Of a stretch of 61,706 bases of DNA, positions 15,505 to 61,541 are shown piece after piece. Position 1 is the stretch's first letter, and each line of letters starts with the position of its first letter. Both the position numbers and the translations under genes were made by a program. The stretch is from an uncultured Bacilli bacterium (GTDB taxonomy: Bacteria > Bacillota_I > Bacilli_A > RF39 > UBA660). Under the pieces are notes generated by a model that worked only from the letters and a program-made list of their open reading frames with translations, searched no databases and was not told the DNA's origin. The DNA is taken from positions 1-61,706 of the forward strand of contig CANQQR010000004.1 in NCBI GenBank assembly GCA_947626035.1. The letters are read 5' to 3'.

Positions 15505-15548
15505 AAATAAAATAAAAAGACAAAAATATCTTTACATATTCCTGTCTT
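15505..15548 (-). terminator. rho-independent terminator closing the paralog locus
   Basis: Coding strand AAGACAGGAATAT-GUAAAG-AUAUUUUUGUCUU (13 pairs including two G-U) followed by UUUAUUUUAUUU. Confidence 0.7.
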
Positions 15549-16137
15549 AAGGTAACTTAGTTGTACCCTCTTTATAAGTATCATTATAATATAATGTACT
15601 ACCAGTAGTATCAACATAAAGTGTTCCATCAAACTTCTTACCTTGACTCTCATTTTGATTAACACTAGTTTCAGGCAATTCCATAGTAAGACTATAAGTA
15701 ATAACTGTCTCACTCTCACTTGGTGGAAAACTCTTATCAACTATCACAATATCTTTTTGTTCTCCACTACTATCTAACTCTATCTCTCCAACTGCACCAG
15801 AACCCTCAGTCTCACTAGTAACACTAGCAACAAGCCCTGGCATAGTATTAGTATACATTAACTTAATCTTAATAGGCCTTGTAGCATCACTAGCACTACT
15901 AGTAATAGTAAACGTCTTAGTCTCTTTCCAACTAGGCTCAATATTAGTTGCAGTCTTAAAATCAGCACCACCATCAAACTTAATAACACCAACATTAGCA
16001 CTACCAACATTAATAACAGGCTCGCCAGTAGTATTCATTTTAGCAGTAAAATAAGCGAAAGTAACACCAATAACCGTAACAATAACAGTCGCAATAGTCA
16101 ACACAACCAATATAATCTCATGCTTTCTACTCTTCAT
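15547..16137 (-). CDS. diverged TasA/camelysin-like secreted protein (paralog I)
   Basis: N-terminus MKSRKHEIILVVLTIATVIVTVIGVTFAYFTAKM (TFAYFT motif). Mature part carries EPSWKETKTFTIT and NESQGKKFDG, homologous to the PGW and QQG islands of the cassettes. Confidence 0.7.
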   Translation of the reverse strand: MKSRKHEIILVVLTIATVIVTVIGVTFAYFTAKMNTTGEPVINVGSANVGVIKFDGGADFKTATNIEPSWKETKTFTITSSASDATRPIKIKLMYTNTMPGLVASVTSETEGSGAVGEIELDSSGEQKDIVIVDKSFPPSESETVITYSLTMELPETSVNQNESQGKKFDGTLYVDTTGSTLYYNDTYKEGTTKLP

Positions 16138-16154
16138 AATAATTCCTTTCCAAC

Positions 16155-16760
16155 TTACAAATTAGGACTACCCTTAGCAATTATCTTACCCTCAAAAACC
16201 TTTCCTTGTAAATTATTTTGATTTTCTCCATTATCAAGAAATTTAACAGTCAATGTATATCTATGAGTAACACCGGTATTAATAGTACCAGTACCAATAC
16301 TAGAACTAGCACTAGGAACAATAAGTTCTCCAGGAATAGTAACCACCCTATTAGTATCACTTATAGGAACATTAACATCTCCTCTAAAACTAGTACTACT
16401 TAAAGTATAAACAAACGACTCATCATTAATAGTATTCTTATCAACATACCAATACAAAGTATAATCTCCAATAGCATTCTCAACTTGACTAACATTAGCA
16501 ATAGTAAACACTAACTCTTGACTCCAACCAGGTTCAACACTATCTGCATTAATATCATTCTCAGCATAAAAAGTAGTCATAATCTCTGAAACAGCTTGCA
16601 TACCAACCTCACCATTAGTATCATTACCAACAACACCAGAAAGCCAAAAAGCATAAGTAGTACCAACACTTACTGATATAAATGATAAAACAGAAACAAT
16701 AGCATAAATATAACTTCTAATAGAAAGCTTTAAATCATCTCTACTCTTTTTATCTTTCAT
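16155..16760 (-). CDS. diverged TasA/camelysin-like secreted protein (paralog H)
   Basis: Start moved to ATG 16760 (GGTGA SD): MKDKKSRDDL.., TM, GTTYAFWLSG. EPGWSQELVFTIAN and NNLQGKVFEG islands. Confidence 0.65.
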   Translation of the reverse strand: MKDKKSRDDLKLSIRSYIYAIVSVLSFISVSVGTTYAFWLSGVVGNDTNGEVGMQAVSEIMTTFYAENDINADSVEPGWSQELVFTIANVSQVENAIGDYTLYWYVDKNTINDESFVYTLSSTSFRGDVNVPISDTNRVVTIPGELIVPSASSSIGTGTINTGVTHRYTLTVKFLDNGENQNNLQGKVFEGKIIAKGSPNL

Positions 16761-16966
16761 ATAATCACCATATCTTACATATATTACTATATAATATAAT
16801 ACCAATAATTCCAAAAAAAAACAATACCAAAAGAAAAAAACACGCAAAAAATTAAATGACCCAATATCACTCTAAAAATAAAATAATAACCCCAAATAAC
16901 AAAAAACACACACTTCTACTTCCCCAAATAGTAAATTAACTATGTTCTTTCTTTCTCTTATCTCTT

Positions 16967-17617
16967 CTATTCTTCAAATGGATTTTTTTCTGTTCCTTGT
17001 GGGTTATCATTATTGTAGTAAATAGTATCGCCACTTGATAACTTACATGAAACTGTCGCTGCAATACTTGCTCCTTGTTGTTCATTTTGAGGAACTTCTG
17101 TTTCCTTGAAAGTTATTTTATATTTGAAGTTATGTACTAAATCACTTCCACTAGCATCTATTGTTCCAGTTGCTAATGGTATTGTTTGTGAGCCACCTGT
17201 AATCTTTACACCATCGCCATCTCCAGTGAATGCTTCATCAAGTTTAGCACCAGTTCCAGCAGTTGCAGTTACATACAAATCAGTAAAAGCAGTTTTTCCA
17301 TCGACACCTGAGTCAGCAGAAGCAGTATTTGAAGTAACTTCTAAATTACATACATAGTTAAATGTACTTTGACCCTTTGTTGCTGTTATAGTTACTGTTT
17401 GATCTTTACTGTCCCAACCTGGTAATATTTTAGTACCAGTTACAGCAGCAGTTTCATACTTAATTGTTCCTAGTTGTGCTGCTCCAACTTCTACATTTGC
17501 AGGATTACCTTGCATTGTTGTAGTGAAATATGCAAATGTAGCACCGATTATAGCAACTAAAAGTGTAGCAATTCCAATTACTGATAAGAATATAGTTTGC
17601 CCTCTATTATCTCCCGT
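16967..17617 (-). CDS. cassette G: full-length secreted-protein frame lacking a canonical start (ACG at 17615-17617)
   Basis: The frame is open from the TAA at 17648-17650 down to the stop at 16967. It encodes ..TGDNRGQTIFLSVIGIATLLVAIIGATFAYFTTTMQGNPANV... I found no in-frame ATG/GTG/TTG upstream of the internal Met used by the ORF track. Confidence 0.6.
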   Translation of the reverse strand, partial: TGDNRGQTIFLSVIGIATLLVAIIGATFAYFTTTMQGNPANVEVGAAQLGTIKYETAAVTGTKILPGWDSKDQTVTITATKGQSTFNYVCNLEVTSNTASADSGVDGKTAFTDLYVTATAGTGAKLDEAFTGDGDGVKITGGSQTIPLATGTIDASGSDLVHNFKYKITFKETEVPQNEQQGASIAATVSCKLSSGDTIYYNNDNPQGTEKNPFEE

Positions 17618-17678
17618 CTCCTCCTCCCCACACTCATAAATAGTAAATTAACTATGTTCTTTCTTTCTCTTATCTCTT
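17516..17678. repeat. inter-cassette junction repeat (F 3' tail + G leader)
   Basis: Contains the leader block and ataaatagtaaattaactatgttctttctttctcttatct. Recurs at 18237-18409, 18932-19113, 19606-19787 and 20286-20453, with partial copies at 16925-16966, 20955-21041, 21345-21406 and 21905-22006. Confidence 0.9.
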
Positions 17679-18338
17679 CTATTCTTCAAATGGATTTTTT
17701 TCTGTTCCAGTTTGATTTTCATTATTGTAATAAAGTTCGCCTTTACCTGTTAACTTACATGAAACTGTTGCTGCGATAGTTGCTCCTTGTTGTTTATCTT
17801 GAGACTCATTTTTATCTTTGAAAGATATTTTGTATTTGAAGTTATGTTCTAAATCACTTCCATTAGCATCTATTGTTCCAGTTGCTAATGGTATTGTTTG
17901 CACAGCGCTTGTACCGTCTATTTGCACACCATCTTCACTTGAAGTTATAGCATTATCAATTTTAGCACCAGTTCCAACAGTTGCAGTTACATACAAATCA
18001 GTAAAAGCAGTTTTTCCATCAACACCTGAGTCTTCAGAAGCAGTATTTGTAGATACAATTAAATCACATTCATATTCGAATGTACTTTGACCTTTTGTTG
18101 CTGTTATAGTTACTGTCTTATCTGTACTGTCCCAACCTGGAAATATATTAGTAGCTTCTGTAACAGGTTCAGCAGAATAAGAAATAGTTCCTAGTTGTGC
18201 TGCTCCAACATTTACATTTGCTGCTTTACCTTGCATTGTTGTAGTGAAATATGCAAATGTAGCACCGATTATAGCAACTAAAAGTGTAGCAATTCCAATT
18301 ACTGATAAGAATATAGTTTGCCCTCTATTATCTCTCGT
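17679..18338 (-). CDS. cassette F: full-length frame, ACG at 18336-18338
   Basis: Same leader. The mature region is closely related to cassette G (TVTITATKGQSTFxYxC.L, TAFTDLYVTAT, tail YYNNxNxxGTEKNPFEE). Confidence 0.6.
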   Translation of the reverse strand, partial: TRDNRGQTIFLSVIGIATLLVAIIGATFAYFTTTMQGKAANVNVGAAQLGTISYSAEPVTEATNIFPGWDSTDKTVTITATKGQSTFEYECDLIVSTNTASEDSGVDGKTAFTDLYVTATVGTGAKIDNAITSSEDGVQIDGTSAVQTIPLATGTIDANGSDLEHNFKYKISFKDKNESQDKQQGATIAATVSCKLTGKGELYYNNENQTGTEKNPFEE

Positions 18339-18409
18339 TTCTTCCTCTCCACACCCATAAATAGTAAATTAACTATGTTCTTTCTTTATTTATTTATTTT
18401 TGCTCGTTA
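18237..18409. repeat. inter-cassette junction repeat (E/F)
   Basis: See 17516-17678. The 3' element is partly diverged here (..ctttctttatttatttatttttgctcg). Confidence 0.85.
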
Positions 18410-19033
18410 TTAATGACTTTGTTCTGTGAAATGTTGTCCATCTTCTTCGCCAGATAGCTTACATGAAACTGTTGCAGCAATATTAGCTCCTTGTTGTTCA
18501 TTTTGAGACTTATTTGTATCTTTGAAAGTTAATTTATATGTGAAGTTATGTATTAAAGTAGTTCCATTAGCATCAATTGAACCAGTCGCTAATTTTATTG
18601 TTTGTGGTGCTTCTGTAGCTTCTATCTTTACCCCATCGCCTTGAGTTAATCCAGTTTCAACAGTTGCACCAGTTCCAGCAGTTGCAGTTACATATAAATC
18701 AGTAAAAGCAGTAGCTCCATCAACACCTTCAGCTGCAGCAGTATTTGAAGATACGACTAAATTACATTCATATTCAAATGTACCATTACCTTTAGTAGCA
18801 GTTATTGTTACTGTTTGATCTTTACTGTCCCAACCTGGAAATATATTAGAACCAGTTACAGCAGCAGCAGTAAAACTAATACTTCCTAATTGTGCAGCAT
18901 TCACAGTTACATCTTTTGCTTGTCCTTGCATTGTTGTAGTGAAATATGCAAATGTAGCACCGATTATAGCAACTAAAAGTGTAGCAATTCCAATTACTGA
19001 TAAGAATATAGTTTGCCCTCTATTATCTCCCGT
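18410..19033 (-). CDS. cassette E: full-length frame, ACG at 19031-19033
   Basis: Same leader. Mature region of the E/F/G subfamily with a unique C-terminal tail (..SGEEDGQHFTEQSH). Confidence 0.6.
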   Translation of the reverse strand, partial: TGDNRGQTIFLSVIGIATLLVAIIGATFAYFTTTMQGQAKDVTVNAAQLGSISFTAAAVTGSNIFPGWDSKDQTVTITATKGNGTFEYECNLVVSSNTAAAEGVDGATAFTDLYVTATAGTGATVETGLTQGDGVKIEATEAPQTIKLATGSIDANGTTLIHNFTYKLTFKDTNKSQNEQQGANIAATVSCKLSGEEDGQHFTEQSH

Positions 19034-19113
19034 CTCCTCCCCTCCACACCCATAAATAGTAAATTAACTATGTTCTTTCTTTCTCTTATCTCGTTTTGCT
19101 TATTATTGTTGGT
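18932..19113. repeat. inter-cassette junction repeat (D/E)
   Basis: See 17516-17678. Confidence 0.9.
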
Positions 19114-19707
19114 CTATTGACCTTTTTGTTGTGAATCTGTGTATTTTGCTTCGCCTGATAGCTTACATGTTACTTGTCCAGCAATGTTTCCACCTTGTTG
19201 CTCATTTTGTTCTTCATCATCTTTGAAAGCTAGTTTATAAGTAATTGTATGTATTGCTTGTTCTCCAGTTGTTTCTATAGTACCATGTGCTATTTTTAAT
19301 GTTTGAACACCTTCTGCTCCATCAGCTGAACTTATTTGTTTACCTTCGCCAGAAAAGCCATCTTCAATTGTAGCATTAGAAGACTCAGCACTAAAATACA
19401 AATCGGTAAATTTAGTATTTGCTGTCACTTCTAAATTACATTCATAATCAAATTTACCTGCACCACCTGCAGCAACAGTTATTGTTGCGGTTCCTGTCTT
19501 CTCCCAACCTGGAAATATATTAGAATCTGTTATTCCAGTTGCAGTATAAGTAATTGTAGGTAATGTTGCTGAACCAACATTAATATCGCCTTGAGTTCCT
19601 GTCATTGTTGTAGTGAAATATGCAAATGTAGCACCGATTATAGCAACTAAAAGTGTAGCAATTCCAATTACTGATAAGAATATAGTTTGCCCTCTATTAT
19701 CTCCCGT
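19114..19707 (-). CDS. cassette D: full-length frame, ACG at 19705-19707
   Basis: Same leader. The mature region is near-identical to cassette C over long stretches. Tail GEAKYTDSQQKGQ. Confidence 0.6.
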   Translation of the reverse strand, partial: TGDNRGQTIFLSVIGIATLLVAIIGATFAYFTTTMTGTQGDINVGSATLPTITYTATGITDSNIFPGWEKTGTATITVAAGGAGKFDYECNLEVTANTKFTDLYFSAESSNATIEDGFSGEGKQISSADGAEGVQTLKIAHGTIETTGEQAIHTITYKLAFKDDEEQNEQQGGNIAGQVTCKLSGEAKYTDSQQKGQ

Positions 19708-19787
19708 CTCCTCCCCTCCACACCCATAAATAGTAAATTAACTATGTTCTTTCTTTCTCTTATCTCGTTTTGCTTATTATTGTTGGT
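19606..19787. repeat. inter-cassette junction repeat (C/D)
   Basis: See 17516-17678. Confidence 0.9.
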
Positions 19788-20402
19788 CTATTGACCTTTT
19801 TGTTGTGAATCTGTGTATTTTGCTTCCCCAGATAACTTACATGTTACAGCACCAACAATACTACCGCCTTCTTGTGAAGTTTGAGGCTCATCTGTATCTT
19901 TAAAAGTTAGTTTATAAGTAATTGTATGTGTTGCTTCTGTTCCAGTTGTTTCTATAGTTCCGCTTGCTATTTTTAAAGTTTGAACGCCCTCTTCTCCGTC
20001 AGCAGAACTTATTTGTTTACCTTCGCCAGAAAAACCAGATTCAATTGTTGCATCAGAAGATTCAGCACTAAAATACAAATCAGTAAATTTAGTGTTTGTT
20101 GTTACTTCTAGACTACATTCATACTCAAATTTACCAGCACCACCTGCAGCAACTTTTATAGTCGCAGTTCCTGACTCAGACCAACCTGGAAATATATTTG
20201 TGCCAGTCAAAGCAGTTGCAGTATAACTAATTGCTGGTAATGTCGCAGCTCCAACATTAATACTACCTTTTTGAGTTTCTTGCATTGTTGTAGTGAAATA
20301 TGCAAATGTAGCACCGATTATAGCAACTAAAAGTGTAGCAATTCCAATTACTGATAAGAATATAGTTTGCCCTCTATTATCTCCTGTCTCCTCCTCCCAC
20401 AC
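19788..20402 (-). CDS. cassette C: in-frame GTG (20400-20402) but no SD; ACA at the homologous start position
   Basis: MWEEETGDNRGQTIFLSV... The purine tract upstream is 1 nt shorter than in D-G, which brings the GTG into frame. Confidence 0.6.
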   Translation of the reverse strand: MWEEETGDNRGQTIFLSVIGIATLLVAIIGATFAYFTTTMQETQKGSINVGAATLPAISYTATALTGTNIFPGWSESGTATIKVAAGGAGKFEYECSLEVTTNTKFTDLYFSAESSDATIESGFSGEGKQISSADGEEGVQTLKIASGTIETTGTEATHTITYKLTFKDTDEPQTSQEGGSIVGAVTCKLSGEAKYTDSQQKGQ

Positions 20403-20453
20403 CCATAAATAGTAAATTAACTATGTTCTTTCTTTCTCTTATCTTATTTCTCT
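20286..20453. repeat. inter-cassette junction repeat (B/C)
   Basis: See 17516-17678. Confidence 0.9.
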
Positions 20454-21125
20454 TTAGTCTCCACTTTGATTACTTTGTGTATAATGAGCCTCGCCTGACA
20501 ACTTGCATATTACTTGTGCTACAAGATTACCCTCTTGTTGGTCGTTTTGGTTATCATTATTATCTTCAAAATCAATTTTATATTTGAAGTTATGAGATAC
20601 ACTATCACCAGTTGTTGTAATAGTTCCGCTTGCTAATTTTATAGTTTGAACACCTTCTGCTCCATCAGCAGAACTTAATGTTTTAGCACTTTGAACACCA
20701 GTATCAATTTCAGCACCTGTTCCAGCTGTAACTGTTAACTTTAAGTCTTTAAATTTTTCATTAGTAGTTACTTCTAGATTACATTCATACTCGAATGTAC
20801 CTGCACCACCAGCAGCAACAGTTATAGTAGCTGTTTTGTCTTCACTTGTCCAACCAGGGTATATATTACTTGCAGTTATAGCCTCAGCAGTATAACTAAT
20901 TGCTGGTAATTTAGCAGAACCTACATTAATTTTACCTTGATTTTCTCCTGTCATTGTTGTAGTGAAATATGCAAATGTAGCACCGATTATAGCAACTAAA
21001 AGTGTAGCAATTCCAATTACTGATAAGAATATAGTTTGCCCTACCGCCGGAGGGTAGTAAGTAGTAAATAAAACATATAAACAACTTATCAACAAAGAAT
21101 TAATTAAAACTACATACACATCCAC
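20454..21125 (-). CDS. cassette B: conserved leader from GQTIF onward, replaced 5' end
   Basis: Upstream of GGGCAAACT the shared sequence is replaced by ..TACTACCCTCCGGCGGTA.., a GC-rich 16-mer. The only in-frame start is the distant GTG at 21125, so the true start is uncertain. Confidence 0.5.
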   Translation of the reverse strand: MDVYVVLINSLLISCLYVLFTTYYPPAVGQTIFLSVIGIATLLVAIIGATFAYFTTTMTGENQGKINVGSAKLPAISYTAEAITASNIYPGWTSEDKTATITVAAGGAGTFEYECNLEVTTNEKFKDLKLTVTAGTGAEIDTGVQSAKTLSSADGAEGVQTIKLASGTITTTGDSVSHNFKYKIDFEDNNDNQNDQQEGNLVAQVICKLSGEAHYTQSNQSGD

Positions 21126-21315
21126 AACCTAATAACAAAGTATATAAAATATAAAATAATATCAACAACATATACACAACTAAATTAATAAACAAGTAAC
21201 ATAATTTTTAAATCAAAAGAAATATAAAAAACTTCTAAAAAACATTAAATAACATAAATGATTTTTAGAAGTTAAAATGCCCATAAAAAAAAGACCATAA
21301 ATAATCTTTATTTAC

Positions 21316-21335
21316 AGTCTTAGTTAGATAAGACT
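21316..21335 (-). terminator. hairpin after cassette A (possible partial or bidirectional terminator)
   Basis: AGTCTTA-N6-TAAGACT, a perfect 7-bp stem. The T-run is immediate only on the plus strand. A second 11-bp inverted repeat sits at 21231-21272. Confidence 0.35.
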
Positions 21336-21406
21336 AACTTTTTTATAAATAGTAAATTAACTATGTTCTTTCTTTCTCTTATCTCGTTTTGCTTATTATT
21401 GTTGGT

Positions 21407-22006
21407 CTATTGACCTTTTTGTTGTGAATCTGTGTATTTTGCTTCCCCAGAAAGTTTGCAAGTTACTGTAGCTGCGATGTTTCCACCTTGTTGCTCGTTT
21501 TGCTCAATTTCAGTATCTTTGAAGTCTAGTTTGTAAGTAAATGTATGTGATGTAGCACTTCCTGTAGCTTCAATTGTTCCACTTGCTAATTTTATTTCTT
21601 GAACACCTTCTTCTCCGTCTTCTGAACTTATTGTCTTTGGACTTTGAACACCAGCATCAATAGTAGCACCTGTTCCAGCTGTAACAGTTAATTCTAAATC
21701 TTTAAACTTAGTATTAGATGTTACATTTAGAGTACATTCATAAGCAAATTTACCTTTACCACTGTCGTCAACAGATATAGTTGCTGTCTTTTCTCCACTA
21801 GACCATCCAGGGTATATATCACTTGCAGTTATCGAATCAGCAGAATATGTGATTTTTGGTAATGTTGCAGACCCAACACTGATATTACCTTGAGTTCCTG
21901 TCATTGTTGTAGTGAAATATGCAAATGTAGCACCGATTATAGCAACTAAAAGTGTAGCAATTCCAATTACTGATAAGAATATAGTTTGCCCTCTATTATC
22001 TCCCAT
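21407..22006 (-). CDS. cassette A: TasA/camelysin-like secreted protein, canonical expression copy
   Basis: AAAGGAGG-N9-ATG. MGDNRGQTIFLSVIGIATLLVAIIGATFAYFTTTM signal, 199 aa. Own promoter upstream. Confidence 0.85.
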   Translation of the reverse strand: MGDNRGQTIFLSVIGIATLLVAIIGATFAYFTTTMTGTQGNISVGSATLPKITYSADSITASDIYPGWSSGEKTATISVDDSGKGKFAYECTLNVTSNTKFKDLELTVTAGTGATIDAGVQSPKTISSEDGEEGVQEIKLASGTIEATGSATSHTFTYKLDFKDTEIEQNEQQGGNIAATVTCKLSGEAKYTDSQQKGQ

Positions 22007-22034
22007 AGTTCTTTACCTCCTTTACTATATACAA

Positions 22035-22063
22035 TGATATCAATTTTTATTTATAAAAGCAAG
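22035..22063 (-). promoter_or_regulatory. sigma-A-type promoter for cassette A
   Basis: Coding strand TTGCTT (22063-22058), a 17-nt spacer ending TGA, then TATCAT (22040-22035), i.e. an extended -10. Confidence 0.55.
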
Positions 22064-22114
22064 CAAAAAATGCAAAATATTGTAAAAATATTTCCCACCA
22101 CACATAATTAACCA

Positions 22115-22161: not shown

Positions 22162-25059
22162 TTATTCATTAACTTTAACTTGTAATCTTGTATAAAATAC
22201 CTTACCTTTATCAGCACTTTGGTCTTCATTAGTATTTTTAAATTCAAAAGTCAATTTATAAGTATGAGTTTCCCCAGCTTTAATAGTTACATCCTTAAGC
22301 ATCTCTAACCCATTGTCAGATGGGTAAGGAACTCTACCCTCATTTAAATCTACAATAGTTTCGTCATTTCTAGTAATACCATAATAAAGTCTATTCTTAA
22401 AATTAAACGTATTAACTATATCTGTCCAAATAATACTATAAGTAACATCAGTATCTCCCTCATTCTTAATAGTAAAATTCTTACTACCTTTCCATCCAGG
22501 CGCAATACTTTGGTCTTTAAGTTCAGTATCATCTAAGAAAGTTAAATTAAATGTATCTCCTTGACCAGTACCAATAACAACATCCTTTAAATCACTAGGT
22601 GCATTTTCTCCAGTCTCTATAGGGTACTTATCAACCTTACCATCTCTATCTGTATCAATATTTCCGTCAGGTGTTCCATCTCCATCTAAATCAACATTCA
22701 AATCAGGTTTACCATCTCCATCAATATCAACATTAACATCTGGTAATCCATCATTATTAGTATCACAATTCAAATCACACTTACCATCATTATTAGTATC
22801 TTGATTAGTTAAATTCTTATCTGGTTTACCATCTCCATTAGTATCAACATTAACATCAGGTACACCATCTTTATTCATATCTAAATTAGTATCAGGTTTA
22901 CCATCCTTATCATTATCAACATTAGTATCAGCCTTACCATCTCCATTAACATCAATATTAACATCAGGTGTTCCATCACTATCAGTATCGCAATTCAAAT
23001 CACACTTTCCGTCTCCATCCTTATCAACATTCAAATCAGGCTTTCCGTCTCCATCAGTATCTAAATTACTATCAACCCTACCATCATTATTATTATCACA
23101 GTTTAAATCACACTTTCCATCTCCATCTGTATCTTGATTAGCAGGATTATCATCAGGTCTACCATCTCCATTAATATCTATATTAGTATCAGGCCATCCA
23201 TCCTTATTAGTATCACAGTTTAAATCACACTTTCCATCTCCATTAGTATCTTGGTCAGTTAAATTCTTATCTGCTTTACCATCTCCATCAGTATCAACAT
23301 TAACATCAGGCTTACCATCCTTATCTAAATCCAAATTAGTATCAGGATTTCCATCTCCATTAGTATCACAATCTAAATCACACACACCATTACCATCAAT
23401 ATCAACATTCAAATCAGGAATACCATCTCCATTAGTATCACAATTAACGTCGCATACACCATCCCCATTAGTATCTTGATTACTCTTATTACTATCAGGA
23501 TTTCCATCTCCATTATTATCTAAATTAGTATCTGGTACACCATCCTTATTAGAATCAATATTAGTATCAGGTTTACCATCTTTATTAGTATCACAATTAT
23601 AGTCACAAATTCCATCATGATTAGTATCAACATTAGTATCAGGTTTACCATCTCTATCTAAATCTAAATTAGTATCAGGAATACCATCCCCATTATTATC
23701 ACAATTTAAATCACATACACCATCTTTATTAGTATCTTGGTCAGTTAAATTCTTATCTGGTTTACCATCTTTATTAACATCACAGTTAAAATCACACTTA
23801 CCATCTCCTGTAACATCAATATCAGTATCAACATTACCATCTTTATTATTATCACAATTTAAATCACACTTACCATTACCAGTAATATCAACATTAGTAT
23901 CAGGCCATCCATCTCCATTATTATCGCAATTCAAATCGCACTTACCATCTCCATCAGTATCTTGATTTAACTTATTCTTATCTGGCTTACCATCTCCATC
24001 CTTATCAACATTAACATCAGGATTACCATCCTTATTAATATCTAAATTAGTATCAGGATTACCATCTTTATTAGTATCACAATTTAAATCACACTTACCA
24101 TTACCACTAACATCAACATTAGTATCAGGCCATCCATCTCCATTAGTATCACAGTTAACATCACACTTACCGTCTCCATCAGTATCTTGATTTAACTTAT
24201 TCTTATCTGGCTTTCCATCTCCATCCTTATCAACATTAACATCAGGCTTACCATCTTTATTAATATCTAAATTAGTATCAGGTTTACCATCTCTATTAGT
24301 ATCACAATTTAAATCGCACTTTCCATCTCCATCTTTATCTACATTCAAATCAGGATTAGTCTCTCTACTATAATCTTTATTAAAAGAACCCTCTCCATAA
24401 TTATCTCCATTAGATAAATTCTTATCTGCTTTACCATCTCCATCAGTATCGCAGTTAACATCACACTTACCGTCTCCATTATTATCTACATTCAAATTAG
24501 GCTTCCTATCTCCTGTAGTATCACAATTCAAATCACAAATACCATCATTATCTGTATCTAAATTCAAATCTGGTATACCATCTCCATTAAAATCTAAATT
24601 AGTATCAGGCTTACCATCCTTATTAGTATCACAGTTAACATCACATACACCATCTTCATCATAATCTTGATTAATCAAATTCTTATCTGGCTTTCCATCT
24701 CCATCAGTATCTATATTAAAGAATGGAACCATAGTATCTCTATACCCAAGATTAATATCAGGTATACCATCATCATTAGTATCACAGTTAACATCACAAA
24801 TACCGTCTCCATCAGTATCAACATTCAAATCAGGCCATCCATCTCCATCAGTATCAATATTAAGCTTCAAATGTGCCTTTTGAAAATAATTCAAAACAGA
24901 CCAAGTAGACGCTATTGTTGCAAGCATAAAAAGCAACAATGCAAAAATAATCAAAATAACTCTCTTATTTTTCTCAGCCTTACTCTTAGGCTCCTCAAAA
25001 TAAAGCCCATCCTCTTCAATAATCTTTTTCTCTTCATCATTATAAGGCTCTTGTCTCAT
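22162..25059 (-). CDS. giant secreted/anchored Cys-rich calcium-binding repeat protein (thrombospondin type-3-like repeats) with C-terminal cassette-type beta-sandwich domain
   Basis: Start taken at ATG 25059 (AAGGTGA SD). N-terminal TM/signal ..ATIASTWSVLNYF. Dozens of DxDxDGxxDxN and CDxNCD units. The C-terminal ~160 aa carry APGWKGSKNFTIKN and DQSADKGKVF islands. Confidence 0.8.
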   Translation of the reverse strand: MRQEPYNDEEKKIIEEDGLYFEEPKSKAEKNKRVILIIFALLLFMLATIASTWSVLNYFQKAHLKLNIDTDGDGWPDLNVDTDGDGICDVNCDTNDDGIPDINLGYRDTMVPFFNIDTDGDGKPDKNLINQDYDEDGVCDVNCDTNKDGKPDTNLDFNGDGIPDLNLDTDNDGICDLNCDTTGDRKPNLNVDNNGDGKCDVNCDTDGDGKADKNLSNGDNYGEGSFNKDYSRETNPDLNVDKDGDGKCDLNCDTNRDGKPDTNLDINKDGKPDVNVDKDGDGKPDKNKLNQDTDGDGKCDVNCDTNGDGWPDTNVDVSGNGKCDLNCDTNKDGNPDTNLDINKDGNPDVNVDKDGDGKPDKNKLNQDTDGDGKCDLNCDNNGDGWPDTNVDITGNGKCDLNCDNNKDGNVDTDIDVTGDGKCDFNCDVNKDGKPDKNLTDQDTNKDGVCDLNCDNNGDGIPDTNLDLDRDGKPDTNVDTNHDGICDYNCDTNKDGKPDTNIDSNKDGVPDTNLDNNGDGNPDSNKSNQDTNGDGVCDVNCDTNGDGIPDLNVDIDGNGVCDLDCDTNGDGNPDTNLDLDKDGKPDVNVDTDGDGKADKNLTDQDTNGDGKCDLNCDTNKDGWPDTNIDINGDGRPDDNPANQDTDGDGKCDLNCDNNNDGRVDSNLDTDGDGKPDLNVDKDGDGKCDLNCDTDSDGTPDVNIDVNGDGKADTNVDNDKDGKPDTNLDMNKDGVPDVNVDTNGDGKPDKNLTNQDTNNDGKCDLNCDTNNDGLPDVNVDIDGDGKPDLNVDLDGDGTPDGNIDTDRDGKVDKYPIETGENAPSDLKDVVIGTGQGDTFNLTFLDDTELKDQSIAPGWKGSKNFTIKNEGDTDVTYSIIWTDIVNTFNFKNRLYYGITRNDETIVDLNEGRVPYPSDNGLEMLKDVTIKAGETHTYKLTFEFKNTNEDQSADKGKVFYTRLQVKVNE

Positions 25060-25331
25060 ACTATTCACCTTCCTATTATCTAATATAAATAATAACACAA
25101 TTAAATAACTAAAGCAAACAAAATAAAACTAAGATTTACTATTTTTAACTCTTTAATGAAGTAATAGGTATAACATACACCCCATCATCCCTCATATAAA
25201 CAGCATTTGTCATCCCACAAATCACACATACAAATTCACTTTTTTCATTTCCATTACCACACTTTTTTAATAAGATAAGATTTACCAGACACTGTCTAAC
25301 ATTTTTTAACTCATAAAAAATGAAACAAAAC

Positions 25332-58397: not shown

Positions 58398-59333
58398 CTA
58401 CAATAATTCCAAATATTTCTTTAACATTTCTATCTCTAATCCATTTATCAATTTAACAAAATCAGTATAATCTTTCGTTGTATGTGCTTTATCTAAAGCT
58501 TCATAATATTGTAATCTATTTTCTTTTTTTATTATTACAGGATTAAAGCCATGTTTCATCAAATCTAAATTCATAATTAATCTTGATGTTCTCCCATTTC
58601 CATCAACAAAAGGATGAATTTTAACAAGTTCACCATGCAATAATGTAGCTCGAATTATTGGATGATATTTATTCCAAGTTTTATAATTTAAAATTAATTT
58701 TTCCATTAACTCAGGAACTTTTACAAAGTCTGGTGGAATATGAGTTGCTCCTTTTATAGTTACATTTTCACTTCTATATCTTCCAGCATTTTCATCATCA
58801 ATTTCTTTTAATATAAGAGCGTGTATATTTTTAATATTCCACTCAGTAATTGGGTCATCATCCTTTACTAAATCATTTAAAAACAAAATTGCGTGTTCGT
58901 GATTTATAGCTTCTAAGTGTTCCTTTATTGATTTTCCTCCAACAGTAATTCCTTCTAAAACTACTTGAGTTTCTTTTAAAGTCAAAGTATTTCCTTCTAT
59001 ACCATTACTATTATAAGTCCATTCCAAATTAATTTTTTCTTGTAGAGTTCTAAGTGTATCTTTTGGTATAGGTCTTTTATTATCAAGTTCTTTTTTTAAA
59101 TTGTCTACTTCATCAAAAAAATTATCTGGCAAATTAATAATAAAATCATTGTGATCTGGTTTTATAATCCTTTTATCAACTGGTTTTAGTGCATCAATTG
59201 GGATATTCCAACTATTTCCATTTTTGACTGCACCTTCTATTCTTCCTTCTTTTAATAATTTTCTTATTCTTCTTTCGCTAATATTCCATTTTAGAACAGC
59301 TTCTTTTGTAGTTATAAATTCCAAAGATATCAC
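58398..59333 (-). CDS. Fic-family protein with N-terminal excisionase/MerR-like HTH
   Basis: HPFVDGNGRTSR Fic motif. N-terminal ITTKEAVLKWNISERRIRKLLKEGRI. The likely real start is the TTG at 59324 behind GAGGTGA. Confidence 0.85.
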   Translation of the reverse strand: MISLEFITTKEAVLKWNISERRIRKLLKEGRIEGAVKNGNSWNIPIDALKPVDKRIIKPDHNDFIINLPDNFFDEVDNLKKELDNKRPIPKDTLRTLQEKINLEWTYNSNGIEGNTLTLKETQVVLEGITVGGKSIKEHLEAINHEHAILFLNDLVKDDDPITEWNIKNIHALILKEIDDENAGRYRSENVTIKGATHIPPDFVKVPELMEKLILNYKTWNKYHPIIRATLLHGELVKIHPFVDGNGRTSRLIMNLDLMKHGFNPVIIKKENRLQYYEALDKAHTTKDYTDFVKLINGLEIEMLKKYLELL

Positions 59334-60284: not shown

Positions 60285-61541
60285 ATGAATAAATATAATC
60301 GATTAAATATAACAAAAGAACAAATGAGATATTTAAAAAAGAAACTAAAGATAACGAAAATGGAAGACATAGAGACAACTGTCCTAAAAGATTTGAAAGA
60401 GACATTTAAGGAATTAAAAGATCGAAGACAAAAATCAAAAACTCATTATAAAATATGGGATATTGTATGTTATGTGATTTTTGCCCAAATGTCCGGTGCA
60501 GAAGATTGGGAAGATATAGAAGAATTTATCAATTATCATTATGATTTTTTTAGAAAGTTCTTATTGATGACAGGAGGAGTTCCGAATTATCAAACGATAG
60601 AAAGAGTAATGTCTATCATTGATAGTCATGAACTTGAAAATATGTTAGTTGAATTTATCAAAAAAATCACGTTTAATGAAAAAACAGAAACAGAAATTTT
60701 AAATATAGATGGAAGAGTAGATTGTGGAAGTAGTAGAAAAGAAACAAACTATCATGGAAAAACATCACCATTAAATGTACTAAATGTTTACTCTAATAAT
60801 TATGGTATGTGTTTAGCAAGTGAGATGATAGAAGATAAAACAAATGAAATAACAACTATACCATCAATATTAGAGCGTTTAAATATAAAAGATACAGTCA
60901 TAACATGGGATGCATTAAATACACAAAAGAAAAATGTAGAAATAGTGAAAAGCAAAAAAGGAAATTACGTTGTGCCAGTTAAGAAAAATCATCCAAACTT
61001 TAATGCTGATTTAGAGTTATATTTCAATGAAAAAACACAAGAAGAAATCATAGCAGGAAGAAGTGATAGTGCGTATTTAAAAGAAATGGAAAAAAGCCAT
61101 TCTTGTTATATAACCTATGAATATTTCCAAACAACTGATGTAAAGTGGTACAGTGGACATAAAGAATGGAAAGGGTTAAATAGCTTTGGTATGGTAAAGA
61201 AAACAATTGAGAGAAACAAAGAAACAATTGTTGAAAAAAGATTTTATATATCAAGTTTGTTTATAGATATAGAGTTATTTTCAAAATCAATAAGAAATCA
61301 TTGGAGTATAGAAAATAAATTACATTGGCATTTAGATTTTACTTTTAGAGAAGATAAGAATACTACACAGAATAAGAAAGCATTGATGAATTTGCAGCTT
61401 ATTAATAAATTTTGTCTAGGAATATTTAGTAGAATAAAGTCGTTTTATAAAAATAAAAGTTTACGTCGAATGAAAAAAATTATGGGAATGGATTTTGAAG
61501 GAATCTTAATAAAAAACATATGTTATTTATTACTATCTTAA
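60285..61541 (+). CDS. ISAs1-family transposase (DDE)
   Basis: 418 aa. The N-terminal FKELKDRRQKSKTHYKIWDIVCYVIFAQMSGAEDWEDIEEF matches the DDE_Tnp_1_assoc signature. C-terminal HWSIENKLHWHLDFTFRED. Confidence 0.8.
   Translation: MNKYNRLNITKEQMRYLKKKLKITKMEDIETTVLKDLKETFKELKDRRQKSKTHYKIWDIVCYVIFAQMSGAEDWEDIEEFINYHYDFFRKFLLMTGGVPNYQTIERVMSIIDSHELENMLVEFIKKITFNEKTETEILNIDGRVDCGSSRKETNYHGKTSPLNVLNVYSNNYGMCLASEMIEDKTNEITTIPSILERLNIKDTVITWDALNTQKKNVEIVKSKKGNYVVPVKKNHPNFNADLELYFNEKTQEEIIAGRSDSAYLKEMEKSHSCYITYEYFQTTDVKWYSGHKEWKGLNSFGMVKKTIERNKETIVEKRFYISSLFIDIELFSKSIRNHWSIENKLHWHLDFTFREDKNTTQNKKALMNLQLINKFCLGIFSRIKSFYKNKSLRRMKKIMGMDFEGILIKNICYLLLS

What the first reader, a model, noticed from the sequence alone, without database searches (positions are those of the whole stretch)
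16925..22075. Seven tandem secreted-protein cassettes: one canonical expression copy and downstream copies that keep full open frames but lack a start codon
There are seven co-directional (minus strand) units spaced 666-953 bp apart. Each unit has three parts.
- A block I read as identical in all seven copies, encoding GQTIFLSVIGIATLLVAIIGATFAYFTTTM (for example 21905-21991, 20955-21041, 19606-19692, 17516-17602).
- A ~130-160-codon variable region with conserved islands (PGW, T(V/A)TIT, TDLY, GTI, (Y/F)K..FKD, QQG, CKLSGE).
- A conserved 3' tail and junction (coding strand AGATAAGAGAAAGAAAGAACATAGTTAATTTACTATTTAT).

Only the promoter-proximal copy A (21407-22006) has AAAGGAGG-N9-ATG and a TTGCTT-N17-TATCAT promoter. 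In D, E, F and G the homologous codon is ACG (19705-19707, 19031-19033, 18336-18338, 17615-17617). In C it is ACA.

In D-G I find no in-frame ATG, GTG or TTG between the upstream stop and the end of the signal peptide. The frame nevertheless stays open through the whole signal peptide and mature domain. Homology to copy A begins exactly at the start codon.

This is the layout expected of an expression site plus archival donor cassettes that swap the mature domain by gene conversion, conceptually like pilE/pilS or vlsE/vls. The alternative is a polycistron initiating at non-AUG codons behind the GGAGG-rich tract 5 nt upstream of the ACG. I am not aware of either being described for TasA/camelysin-type proteins.
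Basis: partly seen in the sequence, partly recalled or inferred. Interest (0 to 1): 0.92.

Follow-up and report, generated by a model that had tools for sequence, protein, structure and literature searches.

The report
One active gene, six start-less copies
An uncultured gut bacterium has one normally expressed gene for a secreted, fibre-like surface protein followed by six intact variant copies that lack a usable start codon and are framed by identical repeats; this layout could let it swap its surface protein by recombination, but no swap at the active gene has been seen.

Summary
Seven co-directional units on the minus strand share an exactly identical 90-nt signal-peptide block and an exact 29-nt 3'UTR element. 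Only copy A has a promoter, SD and ATG. That promoter and leader are conserved in at least 17 related genomes, and two terminators follow A. B loses homology at codon 6, C has ACA and D-G have ACG at the start position. All six stay open for 192-214 codons.

Independent assemblies from four other samples reproduce the sequence, including the ACG junctions of D/E and F. In 76 related loci every close-family copy has its own ATG (one has GTG).

The block has no synonymous differences although the mature domains have dS 0.27-1.16, so recombination homogenises it. A's 3' end is identical to C and D.

My best reading (about 0.4) is a recombinational reserve of silent cassettes. Against it: A is identical in three samples, its central 435 nt match no cassette, and the tracts before ACG are the strongest SDs in the region. 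Weak ACG-initiated translation (0.25) and recently silenced paralogs (0.2) remain open.

One low-coverage contig has a C-type domain in the D slot. This is either a real cassette exchange or an assembly mis-thread.

The parts
22034..22062 (-). Promoter of copy A: TTGCTT, 17 nt, (TG-A-)TATCAT
   Evidence: Read directly from the sequence. The same -35/extended -10/leader is conserved upstream of the first family gene in at least 17 related genomes.
22016..22023 (-). Shine-Dalgarno AAAGGAGG of copy A, 9 nt before the ATG
   Evidence: Predicted anti-SD duplex -13.8 kcal/mol.
21407..22006 (-). Copy A: the only canonical gene (199 aa, ATG, stop TAG)
   Evidence: Identical in L078 and L080.
21281..21320 (-). 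Intrinsic terminator 1 after A (13-bp stem, U8 tail, -10.0 kcal/mol)
21220..21274 (-). Intrinsic terminator 2 after A (16-bp imperfect stem, U-run, -13.2 kcal/mol)
   Evidence: (I2).
20454..21041 (-). Copy B: homology to the family starts at codon 6. No SD and no canonical start in context. Frame open for 195 codons.
   Evidence: Identical in L080.
19788..20387 (-). Copy C: ACA at the start position. An in-frame GTG (20402) has no SD. Frame open.
   Evidence: dN/dS against D is 0.27.
19114..19707 (-). Copy D: ACG at the start position. Frame open. In contig L077 this slot carries a C-type domain.
18410..19033 (-). Copy E: ACG at the start position. Frame open.
   Evidence: L079 independently confirms the junction and the gene.
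17679..18338 (-). Copy F: ACG at the start position, flanked on both sides by F-specific G-to-A changes. Frame open.
   Evidence: L077 and L079 confirm it.
16967..17617 (-). Copy G: ACG at the start position. Frame open.
21902..21991 (-). 90-nt identical signal-peptide block, copy A. The other six are at 20952-21041, 20283-20372, 19603-19692, 18929-19018, 18234-18323 and 17513-17602.
   Evidence: exact matches. (0 synonymous differences).
21347..21375 (-). 29-nt exact 3'UTR element AAAGAAAGAACATAGTTAATTTACTATTT after A. The other six are at 20407-20435, 19728-19756, 19054-19082, 18359-18387, 17638-17666 and 16926-16954.
   Evidence: seven exact copies in the window, none (at up to 5 mismatches) in the 76 related loci.
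19699..19729 (-). G/A-rich tract before the ACG of D (GGGTGTGGAGGGGAGGAGACGGGAG). Equivalents are at 20381-20407 (C), 19025-19055 (E), about 18330-18360 (F, decayed) and 17609-17637 (G).
   Evidence: the tracts of C, D, E and G are the only 20-nt windows with at least 12 G in 61.7 kb; strongest anti-SD pairing in the region.
22162..25098 (-). Upstream neighbour: 978-aa Asp-rich repeat protein whose C-terminal domain is homologous to the cassette domain
   Evidence: hhalign probability 92%.
15547..16847 (-). Two further paralogues with their own ATG starts (15547-16137; 16155 to about 16760)
   Evidence: hhalign probability 99.5%.

Best explanation
The locus is a lineage-specific expansion of a conserved two-gene pair that encodes secreted, beta-sandwich, distantly TasA/camelysin-like surface or fibre subunits. 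The host is an uncultured low-GC gut member of the Bacilli.

Copy A is the conserved, strongly expressed gene. It has its own promoter, SD and ATG and ends in two terminators.

Copies B-G are most likely silent reserve cassettes. They have lost canonical initiation in three different ways (5' truncation, ACA, ACG), but selection keeps them as full open frames.

Each variable domain is framed by sequences identical to those framing A's variable domain: the 91-105-nt signal-peptide block on the 5' side and a 29-107-nt tail/3'UTR element on the 3' side. RecA-type homologous recombination between these repeats, as gene conversion or unequal crossing-over, could place a different variable domain behind A's promoter and ATG.

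Shown here: the anatomy, the homogenisation, the mosaicism, the maintenance of the open frames, and the uniqueness of the start-less state among relatives.

Inferred, not shown: that B-G are untranslated, and that transfer into A happens and is used for surface variation. If it happens, it is probably infrequent.
For: - Only A has a promoter/leader/ATG, and this is conserved across at least 17 related genomes.
- Two intrinsic terminators follow A.
- No sigma-70-like promoter is visible in the roughly 85-nt C-G junctions (and reading of the sequence).
- There are three distinct start lesions (B, C, D-G) but no lesion inside roughly 3.7 kb of coding sequence.
- The frames are open for 192-214 codons, against 13-28 stops in the other frames. 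About 4.5% of point substitutions would create a stop. C-D differ by 83 substitutions and F-G by 98, plus indels that are all in frame.
- dN/dS is 0.27 for C-D and 0.58 for E-F, both significantly below 1 by my chi-square test on the substitution counts.
- F's ACG is flanked on both sides by F-specific changes, so the start-less state predates them.
- The block has 0 synonymous differences against dS 0.27-1.16 elsewhere. Paralogues in relatives do differ at synonymous sites in the same block.
- A's last roughly 110 nt are 100% identical to C and D (permutation p below 0.0005).
- The exact 29-nt element follows every unit, including A and G.
- Contig L077 is 100% identical to the window's D-E-F region, except that the D variable domain is replaced, exactly between the two flanking repeats, by the C variable domain.
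- In a relative (L036), family members carry (TA)n promoter spacers of variable length. This suggests the family is a target of phase variation.
Against: - A is identical in three samples (window, L078, L080).
- No chimeric protein with A's N-terminus and another cassette's domain is in a 5.8-billion-protein database.
- A's central 435 nt have almost no exact matches of 14 nt or more to B-G, so A is not a recent mosaic of these donors.
- C, D, E and G keep the strongest SD-like tracts in the region, positioned 5-7 nt before ACG/ACA. A silent cassette would not need these.
- dN/dS for F-G (0.72) and E-G (0.68) is not significantly below 1 by the same test.
- L077 is a 3.8x short-read contig. 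It could be mis-threaded through the identical repeats.
- No dedicated recombinase lies in the window.
Confidence: 0.4

Rival explanations
1. B-G, or at least D-G, form a transcribed polycistron. Its cistrons are translated at low efficiency from the near-cognate ACG, or another non-AUG codon such as the in-frame ATA of QTIF. Unusually strong, extended Shine-Dalgarno tracts drive this initiation. The result would be several minor variant subunits alongside the dominant A subunit.
For: - Anti-SD pairing is -14.7 to -15.5 kcal/mol for C, D, E and G. The mean for 27 ordinary genes is -9.1, their best is -13.7, and A scores -13.8.
- A GGAGG core lies 7 nt (D, E) or 5 nt (G) before the ACG.
- These G-rich tracts are unique in a 28.5% GC window.
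- In S. aureus, non-canonical AUU/AUA starts with extended SDs give 10-30% of AUG expression (PMC13009471).
- In E. coli, ACG supports roughly 0.1-1% of AUG expression, and Met-initiated product was verified by mass spectrometry (bioRxiv 10.1101/063800).
- An extended -10-like motif, TGaTATTAT, lies at 21164-21156 upstream of B.
- The open frames and dN/dS below 1 fit translated genes.
Against: - To my knowledge, no natural bacterial ACG start codon is established.
- C has ACA, two changes away from AUG. B has no SD at all. Both are nonetheless intact, and C-D shows the strongest purifying selection.
- F's tract has decayed to -10.3 kcal/mol.
- Two terminators separate A from the array, and no convincing promoter precedes B.
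- In 76 related loci every close-family copy uses ATG, apart from one GTG.
Confidence: 0.25
2. B-G are simply paralogues that were silenced fairly recently. A start-codon lesion arose once and spread by the same gene conversion that homogenises the adjacent block. The copies have not yet had time to accumulate internal lesions. They have no present function.
For: - Conversion tracts demonstrably cover the block 13 nt downstream of the ACG in all copies, so a T-to-C change could hitch-hike.
- The start-less state is confined to this one strain or species.
- dN/dS for F-G (0.72) and E-G (0.68) is not significantly below 1 by a chi-square test on the counts.
- A shows no sign of receiving cassette sequence in its centre.
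Against: - There are three different start lesions and none anywhere else in about 3.7 kb.
- F's ACG is embedded between four F-specific G-to-A changes. It is therefore older than roughly 20% local divergence.
- Since the F-G split there have been 98 substitutions and two indels with no stop or frameshift. Using the 4.5% stop-creating fraction, I estimate p of about 0.01 for no stop and about 0.1 for both indels being in frame.
- C-D dN/dS is 0.27.
- Six tandem direct repeats with perfect homology of 100 nt or more should collapse quickly if they were not maintained.
Confidence: 0.2
3. The start-less copies, or their order, are an artefact of assembling a repeat array from short reads (collapsed or mis-threaded repeats, consensus errors).
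For: - The array contains exact repeats of 105-275 nt.
- One independent contig (L077, 3.8x coverage) threads the repeats differently from the window.
Against: - F and G carry copy-specific variants within 20 nt of their ACG, so single reads link the two.
- L079 and L077 from other samples reproduce the D/E and F junctions with ACG, and L080 reproduces A-B-C, all at 100% identity.
Confidence: 0.03

Closest known systems
Neisseria pilE/pilS pilin antigenic variation
   Same: - One expression locus with promoter/RBS/start, plus several promoter-less and start-less variant copies.
- The variable region is framed by conserved sequence.
- A conserved element sits at the 3' end of each unit, comparable to the Sma/Cla repeat.
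- The expressed and silent copies are mosaic with respect to each other.
- A G-rich tract is associated with the system.
   Different: - pilS copies lack the conserved N-terminal coding part. Here the cassettes keep the whole coding sequence, signal peptide included, and lack only a usable start.
- The cassettes are directly adjacent to the expressed gene and co-directional with it.
- The G-rich tract sits at the donors, not upstream of the expressed gene.
- No variation at the expressed gene was seen in three samples.
- The protein family is unrelated.
Borrelia vlsE/vls, and the 'functional pseudogenes' of Anaplasma msp2 and Mycoplasma synoviae vlhA
   Same: - A contiguous array of open-frame silent cassettes lies next to a single expression site.
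- The frames of the donors are kept open.
- Conserved flanks serve as recombination substrates.
   Different: - vls cassettes are short internal segments with 17-bp repeats, in inverse orientation on a linear plasmid.
- The msp2 and vlhA donors are truncated at the 5' and 3' ends.
- Here the donors are full-length and tandem, and they retain SD-like tracts.
Mycoplasma variable lipoprotein families (vsp, vlp, vpma)
   Same: - They are tandem paralogues that share a highly conserved 5' region and signal peptide, followed by divergent mature domains.
- A relative of the window organism (L036) has (TA)n promoter spacers of variable length, analogous to the vlp poly(A) promoter tracts.
   Different: In the window there are no per-gene promoters, no repeat tracts in promoters, no inverted repeats and no invertase/Xer-type recombinase.
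TasA / camelysin (Peptidase_M73) fibre subunits with SipW-type signal peptides
   Same: - The N-terminal signal ends in G-A-T-F-A-Y-F, like the GGTFAYFSD motif of CalY/TasA.
- The mature domain is all-beta.
- The C-terminal F-K-D...QN-QQG motif aligns with Peptidase_M73.
- The locus encodes several paralogues plus a large protein with the same domain.
   Different: - All Pfam and NCBIfam scores are below the curated cut-offs.
- Fold search does not retrieve TasA, and hhalign against TasA gives E = 0.089.
- No SipW gene lies in the window.
- The hydrophobic N-terminus is almost invariant across genera, which is unusual for a signal peptide.
Non-canonical start codons with extended SD in Firmicutes (S. 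aureus infC, cvfC1, ccpN; PMC13009471)
   Same: A very strong, extended SD lies directly upstream of a near-cognate codon at the head of an intact ORF.
   Different: - The known cases use AUU or AUA, not ACG.
- They are single conserved genes, not a repeated array.
- Here C (ACA) and B (no SD) cannot be explained in this way.

Membership tests
Expression-site / silent-cassette antigenic variation (pilE/pilS, vlsE/vls type) | A single locus with promoter, RBS and start codon | tested here: met
   Only A has the conserved promoter/SD/ATG. Terminators follow it.
Expression-site / silent-cassette antigenic variation (pilE/pilS, vlsE/vls type) | Multiple variant copies that cannot be expressed on their own but keep open frames | tested here: inconclusive
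   B-G lack a canonical start in context and have no promoter of their own, and their frames are open. However, C-G keep very strong SD-like tracts, and D-G have a near-cognate ACG. Silence is therefore not proven.
Expression-site / silent-cassette antigenic variation (pilE/pilS, vlsE/vls type) | Conserved sequences flanking the variable segment in both donor and recipient | tested here: met
   The 5' flank is 91-105 nt exact and the 3' flank 29-107 nt exact in all units.
Expression-site / silent-cassette antigenic variation (pilE/pilS, vlsE/vls type) | The expressed copy varies between clones or samples and is a mosaic of donor segments | tested here: not met
   A is identical in three samples. 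Only its ends match cassettes, and its central 435 nt are unique. No chimeric proteins are in the database. The sample is small and of low coverage.
Expression-site / silent-cassette antigenic variation (pilE/pilS, vlsE/vls type) | Non-reciprocal, RecA/RuvAB-dependent transfer from donor to expression site | not testable with these tools
   This needs genetics or long-read population sequencing. L077, with a C-type domain in the D slot, is only suggestive.
TasA / camelysin (Pfam Peptidase_M73, PF12389) | Score above the Pfam gathering threshold | tested here: not met
   A scores 13.1 bits against a cut-off of 22.5. 12 of 23 family members give sub-threshold hits, the best at E = 0.0016. A few homologues carry a precomputed PF12389 hit.
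TasA / camelysin (Pfam Peptidase_M73, PF12389) | TasA-like fold | tested here: inconclusive
   The AF2 model is an all-beta sandwich with core pLDDT above 88. The best PDB matches are FimG-type pilins at TM 0.28-0.39, and TasA is not listed among the 50 best matches shown. hhalign against TasA, using a sequence recalled from memory, gives E = 0.089.
SipW-dependent signal peptide (TIGR04088) | Model hit above the cut-off, and a cognate SipW peptidase | tested here: not met
   The cassettes give no hit at E below 0.01. The neighbouring paralogue scores 18.5 bits against a cut-off of 19. No signal peptidase is among the window ORFs scanned. The GATFAYF motif is present by eye.
Phase variation by invertible promoter or site-specific recombinase | Inverted repeats flanking a promoter segment, and a nearby invertase or tyrosine recombinase | tested here: not met
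   There are no inverted repeats of 25 nt or more in 15-23 kb, and only weak AT-rich ones around A/B. There is no recombinase; the only mobile-element gene is an IS4-type DDE transposase at 60285-61541.

The most novel reading that the evidence does not exclude
The four ACG codons are genuine, selected initiation codons. Each is served by the strongest Shine-Dalgarno tracts in the region. D-G would then be translated at a low, fixed ratio to A, giving a dominant subunit plus a palette of minor variant subunits. To my knowledge this would be the first natural use of ACG as a bacterial start codon, repeated four times in one operon.
Probability: 0.2. Interest if true: 0.8.

Novelty: new variant of a known kind. 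Interest (0 to 1): 0.6.

Why it matters
Recombinational cassette systems for surface variation are known almost only from pathogens (Neisseria, Borrelia, Anaplasma, Treponema, some mycoplasmas). A comparable archive in an uncultured commensal gut Firmicute would extend that strategy to the normal microbiota and to a new protein family. It would be built from full-length copies of a TasA-like fibre or surface subunit that lack only their start.

The locus is also a clean natural test case for two open questions:
- How far can a very strong SD rescue initiation at ACG in Firmicutes?
- How do short perfect repeats, 90-105 nt on the 5' side and 29-107 nt on the 3' side, drive concerted evolution within a tandem array?

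Practically, gene callers start these ORFs at the internal ATG, or for B and C at a context-less upstream GTG. Annotations of such MAGs therefore misreport the proteins.

Tried and rejected
- **Alternative genetic code.** Rejected. 43 long ORFs are intact under table 11 and TGA serves as a stop in 4 of them.
- **Sequencing error at ACG.** Rejected. Independent contigs from other samples show the same junctions, and copy-specific variants lie next to the ACG in F and G.
- **Invertible promoter or shufflon.** Rejected. There are no meaningful inverted repeats and no recombinase.
- **Diversity-generating retroelement.** Rejected. No reverse transcriptase was found in the scanned ORFs, and the differences between copies are not adenine-specific.
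- **Structured RNA in the junctions.** No credible Rfam match in 15-26 kb; the only hit is a microRNA family far below its threshold.
- **Programmed frameshift from the out-of-frame ATG/GTG of ...TTTATGGGTGTGG.** That ATG opens a 19-codon ORF, MGVEGRRREIIEGKLYSYQ*. Rejected because neither start has an SD, there is no X-XXY-YYZ slippery site, and the only plausible +1 site (GGG-AGA-TAA in D, E and G) is absent from F (reading).
- **In-frame ATT inside the 29-nt element as a start.** Unlikely, because no SD lies at a usable distance.
- **Per-cassette promoters.** The consensus scan finds fewer promoter-like sites than in shuffled sequence, and none in the junctions.
- **Searches for more examples.** Two exact-pattern scans of JGI metagenome contigs found nothing, and a plasmid megablast found nothing. 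No relative closer than about 48% identity exists in the protein database.
- **TasA membership.** Pfam/NCBIfam, fold search, a PDB sequence search and hhalign were all sub-threshold.
- **G-quadruplex idea.** Only a loose motif (loops of 7, 7 and 10 nt) exists, and only at the D and E junctions. I kept it as speculation only.

Full report
**1. What is there**

The window is 28.5% GC and uses the standard bacterial code; TGA is used as a stop. On the minus strand between 16.9 and 22.1 kb lie seven co-directional units.

- A 90-nt block, GGGCAAACT...ACAACAATG, encodes GQTIFLSVIGIATLLVAIIGATFAYFTTTM. It is exactly identical in all seven units. Its 5' ends are at 21991, 21041, 20372, 19692, 19018, 18323 and 17602.
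- After the block, identity drops at once to about 55-85%.
- Identity rises again in a 3' tail and in a 29-nt non-coding element, AAAGAAAGAACATAGTTAATTTACTATTT. This element is exact after every unit, including the first and the last.

Copy A (21407-22006) has these signals:
- TTGCTT, 17 nt, TG-A-TATCAT;
- AAAGGAGG, 9 nt, ATG.

The start regions of the other copies differ:
- B shares nothing with A upstream of codon 6 and has no SD.
- C has ACA at the start position. An in-frame GTG lies five codons upstream without an SD. C differs from D-G by a 1-nt indel in the G-rich tract.
- D, E, F and G have ACG. There is no in-frame ATG, GTG or TTG back to the preceding stop.

All seven frames remain open for 192-214 codons. 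The other two frames of the same DNA contain 13-28 stops each.

**2. It is not an artefact**

Four short-read contigs from four other ENA samples carry parts of the array.
- L078 has the A promoter and A.
- L080 has A-B-C.
- L079 has the D tail, E and the F junction.
- L077 covers the D slot, E and F.

All are 100% identical to the window wherever they are collinear. They include the ACG junctions of D/E and F. In F and G, copy-specific substitutions lie within 20 nt of the ACG, so single reads tie the two together.

**3. What the proteins are**

Pfam and NCBIfam give no hit above threshold for the cassettes.
- Peptidase_M73 (camelysin/TasA) appears below threshold in 12 of 23 family members.
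- A few homologues carry a precomputed PF12389 hit.
- A neighbouring paralogue scores 18.5 bits against the 19-bit cut-off of the SipW-cognate signal model.

An AlphaFold model built on 23 sequences gives a confident all-beta sandwich for residues about 50-194, with a low-confidence N-terminus. Foldseek against the PDB finds only weak matches, FimG-type pilins at TM 0.28-0.39. hhalign against TasA, using a sequence I recalled from memory, is not significant.

'Distantly TasA/camelysin-like secreted beta-sandwich subunit' is a fair label. Membership of the family is not established.

The hydrophobic N-terminus is nearly invariant at the protein level in homologues that are only about 45% identical overall.

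**4. Context and relatives**

The locus is syntenic with uncultured gut Bacilli, which are deposited under names such as 'Clostridium sp. CAG:628' and 'Tenericutes bacterium'. The shared order is ligA, GGDEF, YihY, large adhesin-like proteins, two family genes, two minor paralogues, LtaS, TilS, FtsH, ParAB (window annotation). The window has seven copies where those genomes have two.

The 978-aa upstream protein ends in the same domain. Two further paralogues with normal ATG starts follow the array.

A's promoter and leader (TGTATATAGTAAAGGAGGTAAAGAACTATG) are conserved upstream of the first family gene in at least 17 genomes.

Tandem arrays of 2-10 paralogues are common among the 76 related loci. 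Every close-family copy there has its own ATG (one has GTG) at the canonical position. Those paralogues also differ at synonymous sites within the N-terminal block.

The start-less state, the nucleotide-perfect block and the 29-nt element are therefore peculiar to this lineage. No relative closer than about 48% identity exists in the protein database.

**5. Recombination**

The mature domains differ by dS 0.27-1.16, yet the 30 block codons show no synonymous difference in any of the 21 pairs. Protein-level constraint cannot explain this. It requires ongoing gene conversion or unequal exchange.

A is a patchwork.
- Its first 13-17 nt after the block match D.
- Its middle is closest to B, at 75-88%.
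- Its last roughly 110 nt, through the 3'UTR element, are 100% identical to C and D. The runs of concordant polymorphic sites give p below 0.0005.

Its central 435 nt, however, have almost no exact matches of 14 nt or more to any cassette.

L077 differs from the window only in the D slot. There the variable domain (L077 positions 231-686) is 100% identical to C's. The switch points fall inside the flanking identical repeats. This is what a whole-cassette conversion would look like. It is also what a de Bruijn assembler could produce at 3.8x coverage, and I cannot tell the two apart.

**6. Selection**

About 4.5% of point substitutions in these sequences would create a stop.
- C-D differ by 83 substitutions and two 3-nt indels.
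- F-G differ by 98 substitutions and 3-nt and 6-nt indels.
- None of these changes breaks a frame.

dN/dS is 0.27 for C-D and 0.58 for E-F; by my chi-square test on the counts, both are significantly below 1. It is 0.68 for E-G and 0.72 for F-G, which are not significant by the same test.

F's ACG sits between four F-specific G-to-A changes (GAAGAA-ACG-AGA against GAGGAG-ACG-GGA). The ACG is therefore older than those changes and was not recently pasted in. Plain recent decay is thus disfavoured, though not excluded.

**7. Expression signals**

Two good intrinsic terminators follow A: 21320-21281 at -10.0 kcal/mol and 21274-21220 at -13.2 kcal/mol. The C-G junctions are about 85 nt long and contain no hairpin and no promoter-like site. 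Only a weak extended -10-like motif precedes B.

On the other hand, the purine tracts in front of ACG/ACA in C, D, E and G are the only 20-nt windows with at least 12 G in 61.7 kb.
- They pair with the anti-SD at -14.7 to -15.5 kcal/mol.
- That is stronger than A (-13.8) and than all 27 ordinary genes tested (mean -9.1).
- A GGAGG core lies 5-7 nt before the ACG.

In S. aureus, extended SDs support AUU/AUA starts at 10-30% of AUG (PMC13009471). In E. coli, ACG gives roughly 0.1-1% of AUG (bioRxiv 10.1101/063800).

**8. Interpretation**

Three readings survive.

(a) *Silent reserve cassettes that can replace A's variable domain by homologous recombination.* This fits the single conserved promoter, the terminators, the three different start lesions with intact frames, the exact flanking homology, the mosaic ends of A and possibly L077. 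It is weakened by the invariance of A in three samples, A's unique centre and the unexplained strong SDs. I give it about 0.4, and I expect switching, if real, to be infrequent.

(b) *Weak non-AUG translation of D-G.* This explains the SD tracts. It does not explain B, or C, which shows the clearest purifying selection. It also requires an initiation codon that, to my knowledge, is not established in any bacterium. About 0.25.

(c) *Recently silenced paralogues.* About 0.2.

An assembly artefact is unlikely, at about 0.03.

Compared with pilE/pilS, vlsE/vls, msp2 or vlhA, the distinctive points are these:
- The putative donors are full-length and keep the signal peptide.
- They lie in tandem directly behind the expressed gene.
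- They keep SD-like tracts.

The key membership feature, observed variation at the expression site, was tested on the little data available and was not met.

**9. Verdict**

This is a real and unusual gene-array architecture in a poorly known gut lineage. It is not described for this protein family in the literature I searched. The cassette-archive idea is plausible but unproven. The raw reads of the four ENA samples, together with long-read, RNA and ribosome-profiling data, would settle it.

Noticed in passing
L036 3732, 5392, 7079, 8823, 10496 (rabbit-gut MAG, 10 tandem paralogues): Five of the ten family genes are each preceded by TTGACA plus an (AT)n run of 19, 21, 21, 25 and 21 nt that merges into a TATAAT-like -10. 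This is the classic layout for phase variation by slipped-strand changes in promoter spacer length. It suggests the family is a variable surface antigen in relatives.
   Followed up: partly
L077 1-2278 compared with window 19832-17561: A contig from another sample is 100% identical to the window's D-E-F region, except that the D variable domain is replaced by a copy of the C variable domain. The switch points lie inside the flanking exact repeats. This is either a real cassette conversion or an assembler mis-thread at 3.8x coverage.
   Followed up: partly
window 22162-25098 (minus strand): A 978-aa protein consists of about 40 Asp-rich DxDxDG/CDxNCD calcium-binding-type repeats. It ends in a roughly 110-aa domain homologous to the cassette domain (hhalign 92%). 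It is possibly the adhesin or tip component of the same surface structure.
   Followed up: partly
window 15547-16137 and 16155-16847 (minus strand): Two more distant paralogues with normal ATG starts and SipW-like signal motifs lie directly downstream of copy G. Relatives have the same pair (189 and 205 aa in L081).
   Followed up: partly
window 20381-20407, 19699-19729, 19025-19055, 17609-17637 (minus strand): The tracts before ACG/ACA are the only 20-nt windows with at least 12 G in the whole 61.7-kb, 28.5% GC window. The D and E junctions are the only loose G4-type motifs (G3 N7 G4 N7 G3 N10 G3). Their function is unclear: SD, recombination hot spot, or neither.
   Followed up: partly
window 21944, 20994, 20325, 19645, 18971, 18276, 17555 (minus strand, inside each block): The codons for V-A-I-I spell TGCTATAAT, a perfect extended -10 consensus. 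It lies about 35 nt upstream of the internal ATG that gene callers use for D-G. It is probably a coincidence of codon choice, since relatives vary here.
   Followed up: no
window 19727-19668 and the equivalent positions in E, F and G: The out-of-frame ATG of ...TTTATGGGTGTGG opens a 19-codon ORF (MGVEGRRREIIEGKLYSYQ*) that ends inside the signal block. It has no SD. In C the equivalent ORF stops after 9 codons.
   Followed up: partly
window 21041-21070 (minus strand): Immediately upstream of B's block lies a GC-rich stretch, CCCTCCGGCGGTA, which is foreign to this AT-rich genome. It marks the point where B loses homology to the other copies. Its origin is unknown.
   Followed up: no
window 60285-61541 (+) and 58398-59333 (-): An IS4-type DDE transposase and a Fic/DOC-family protein lie at the far end of the contig. 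They are unrelated to the array.
   Followed up: no
whole window: There is extreme strand asymmetry. Nearly all genes are on the minus strand, and GGG runs number 342 on the minus strand against 42 on the plus strand. The parAB, tilS, ftsH, ksgA and metG context suggests a position near the replication origin.
   Followed up: no
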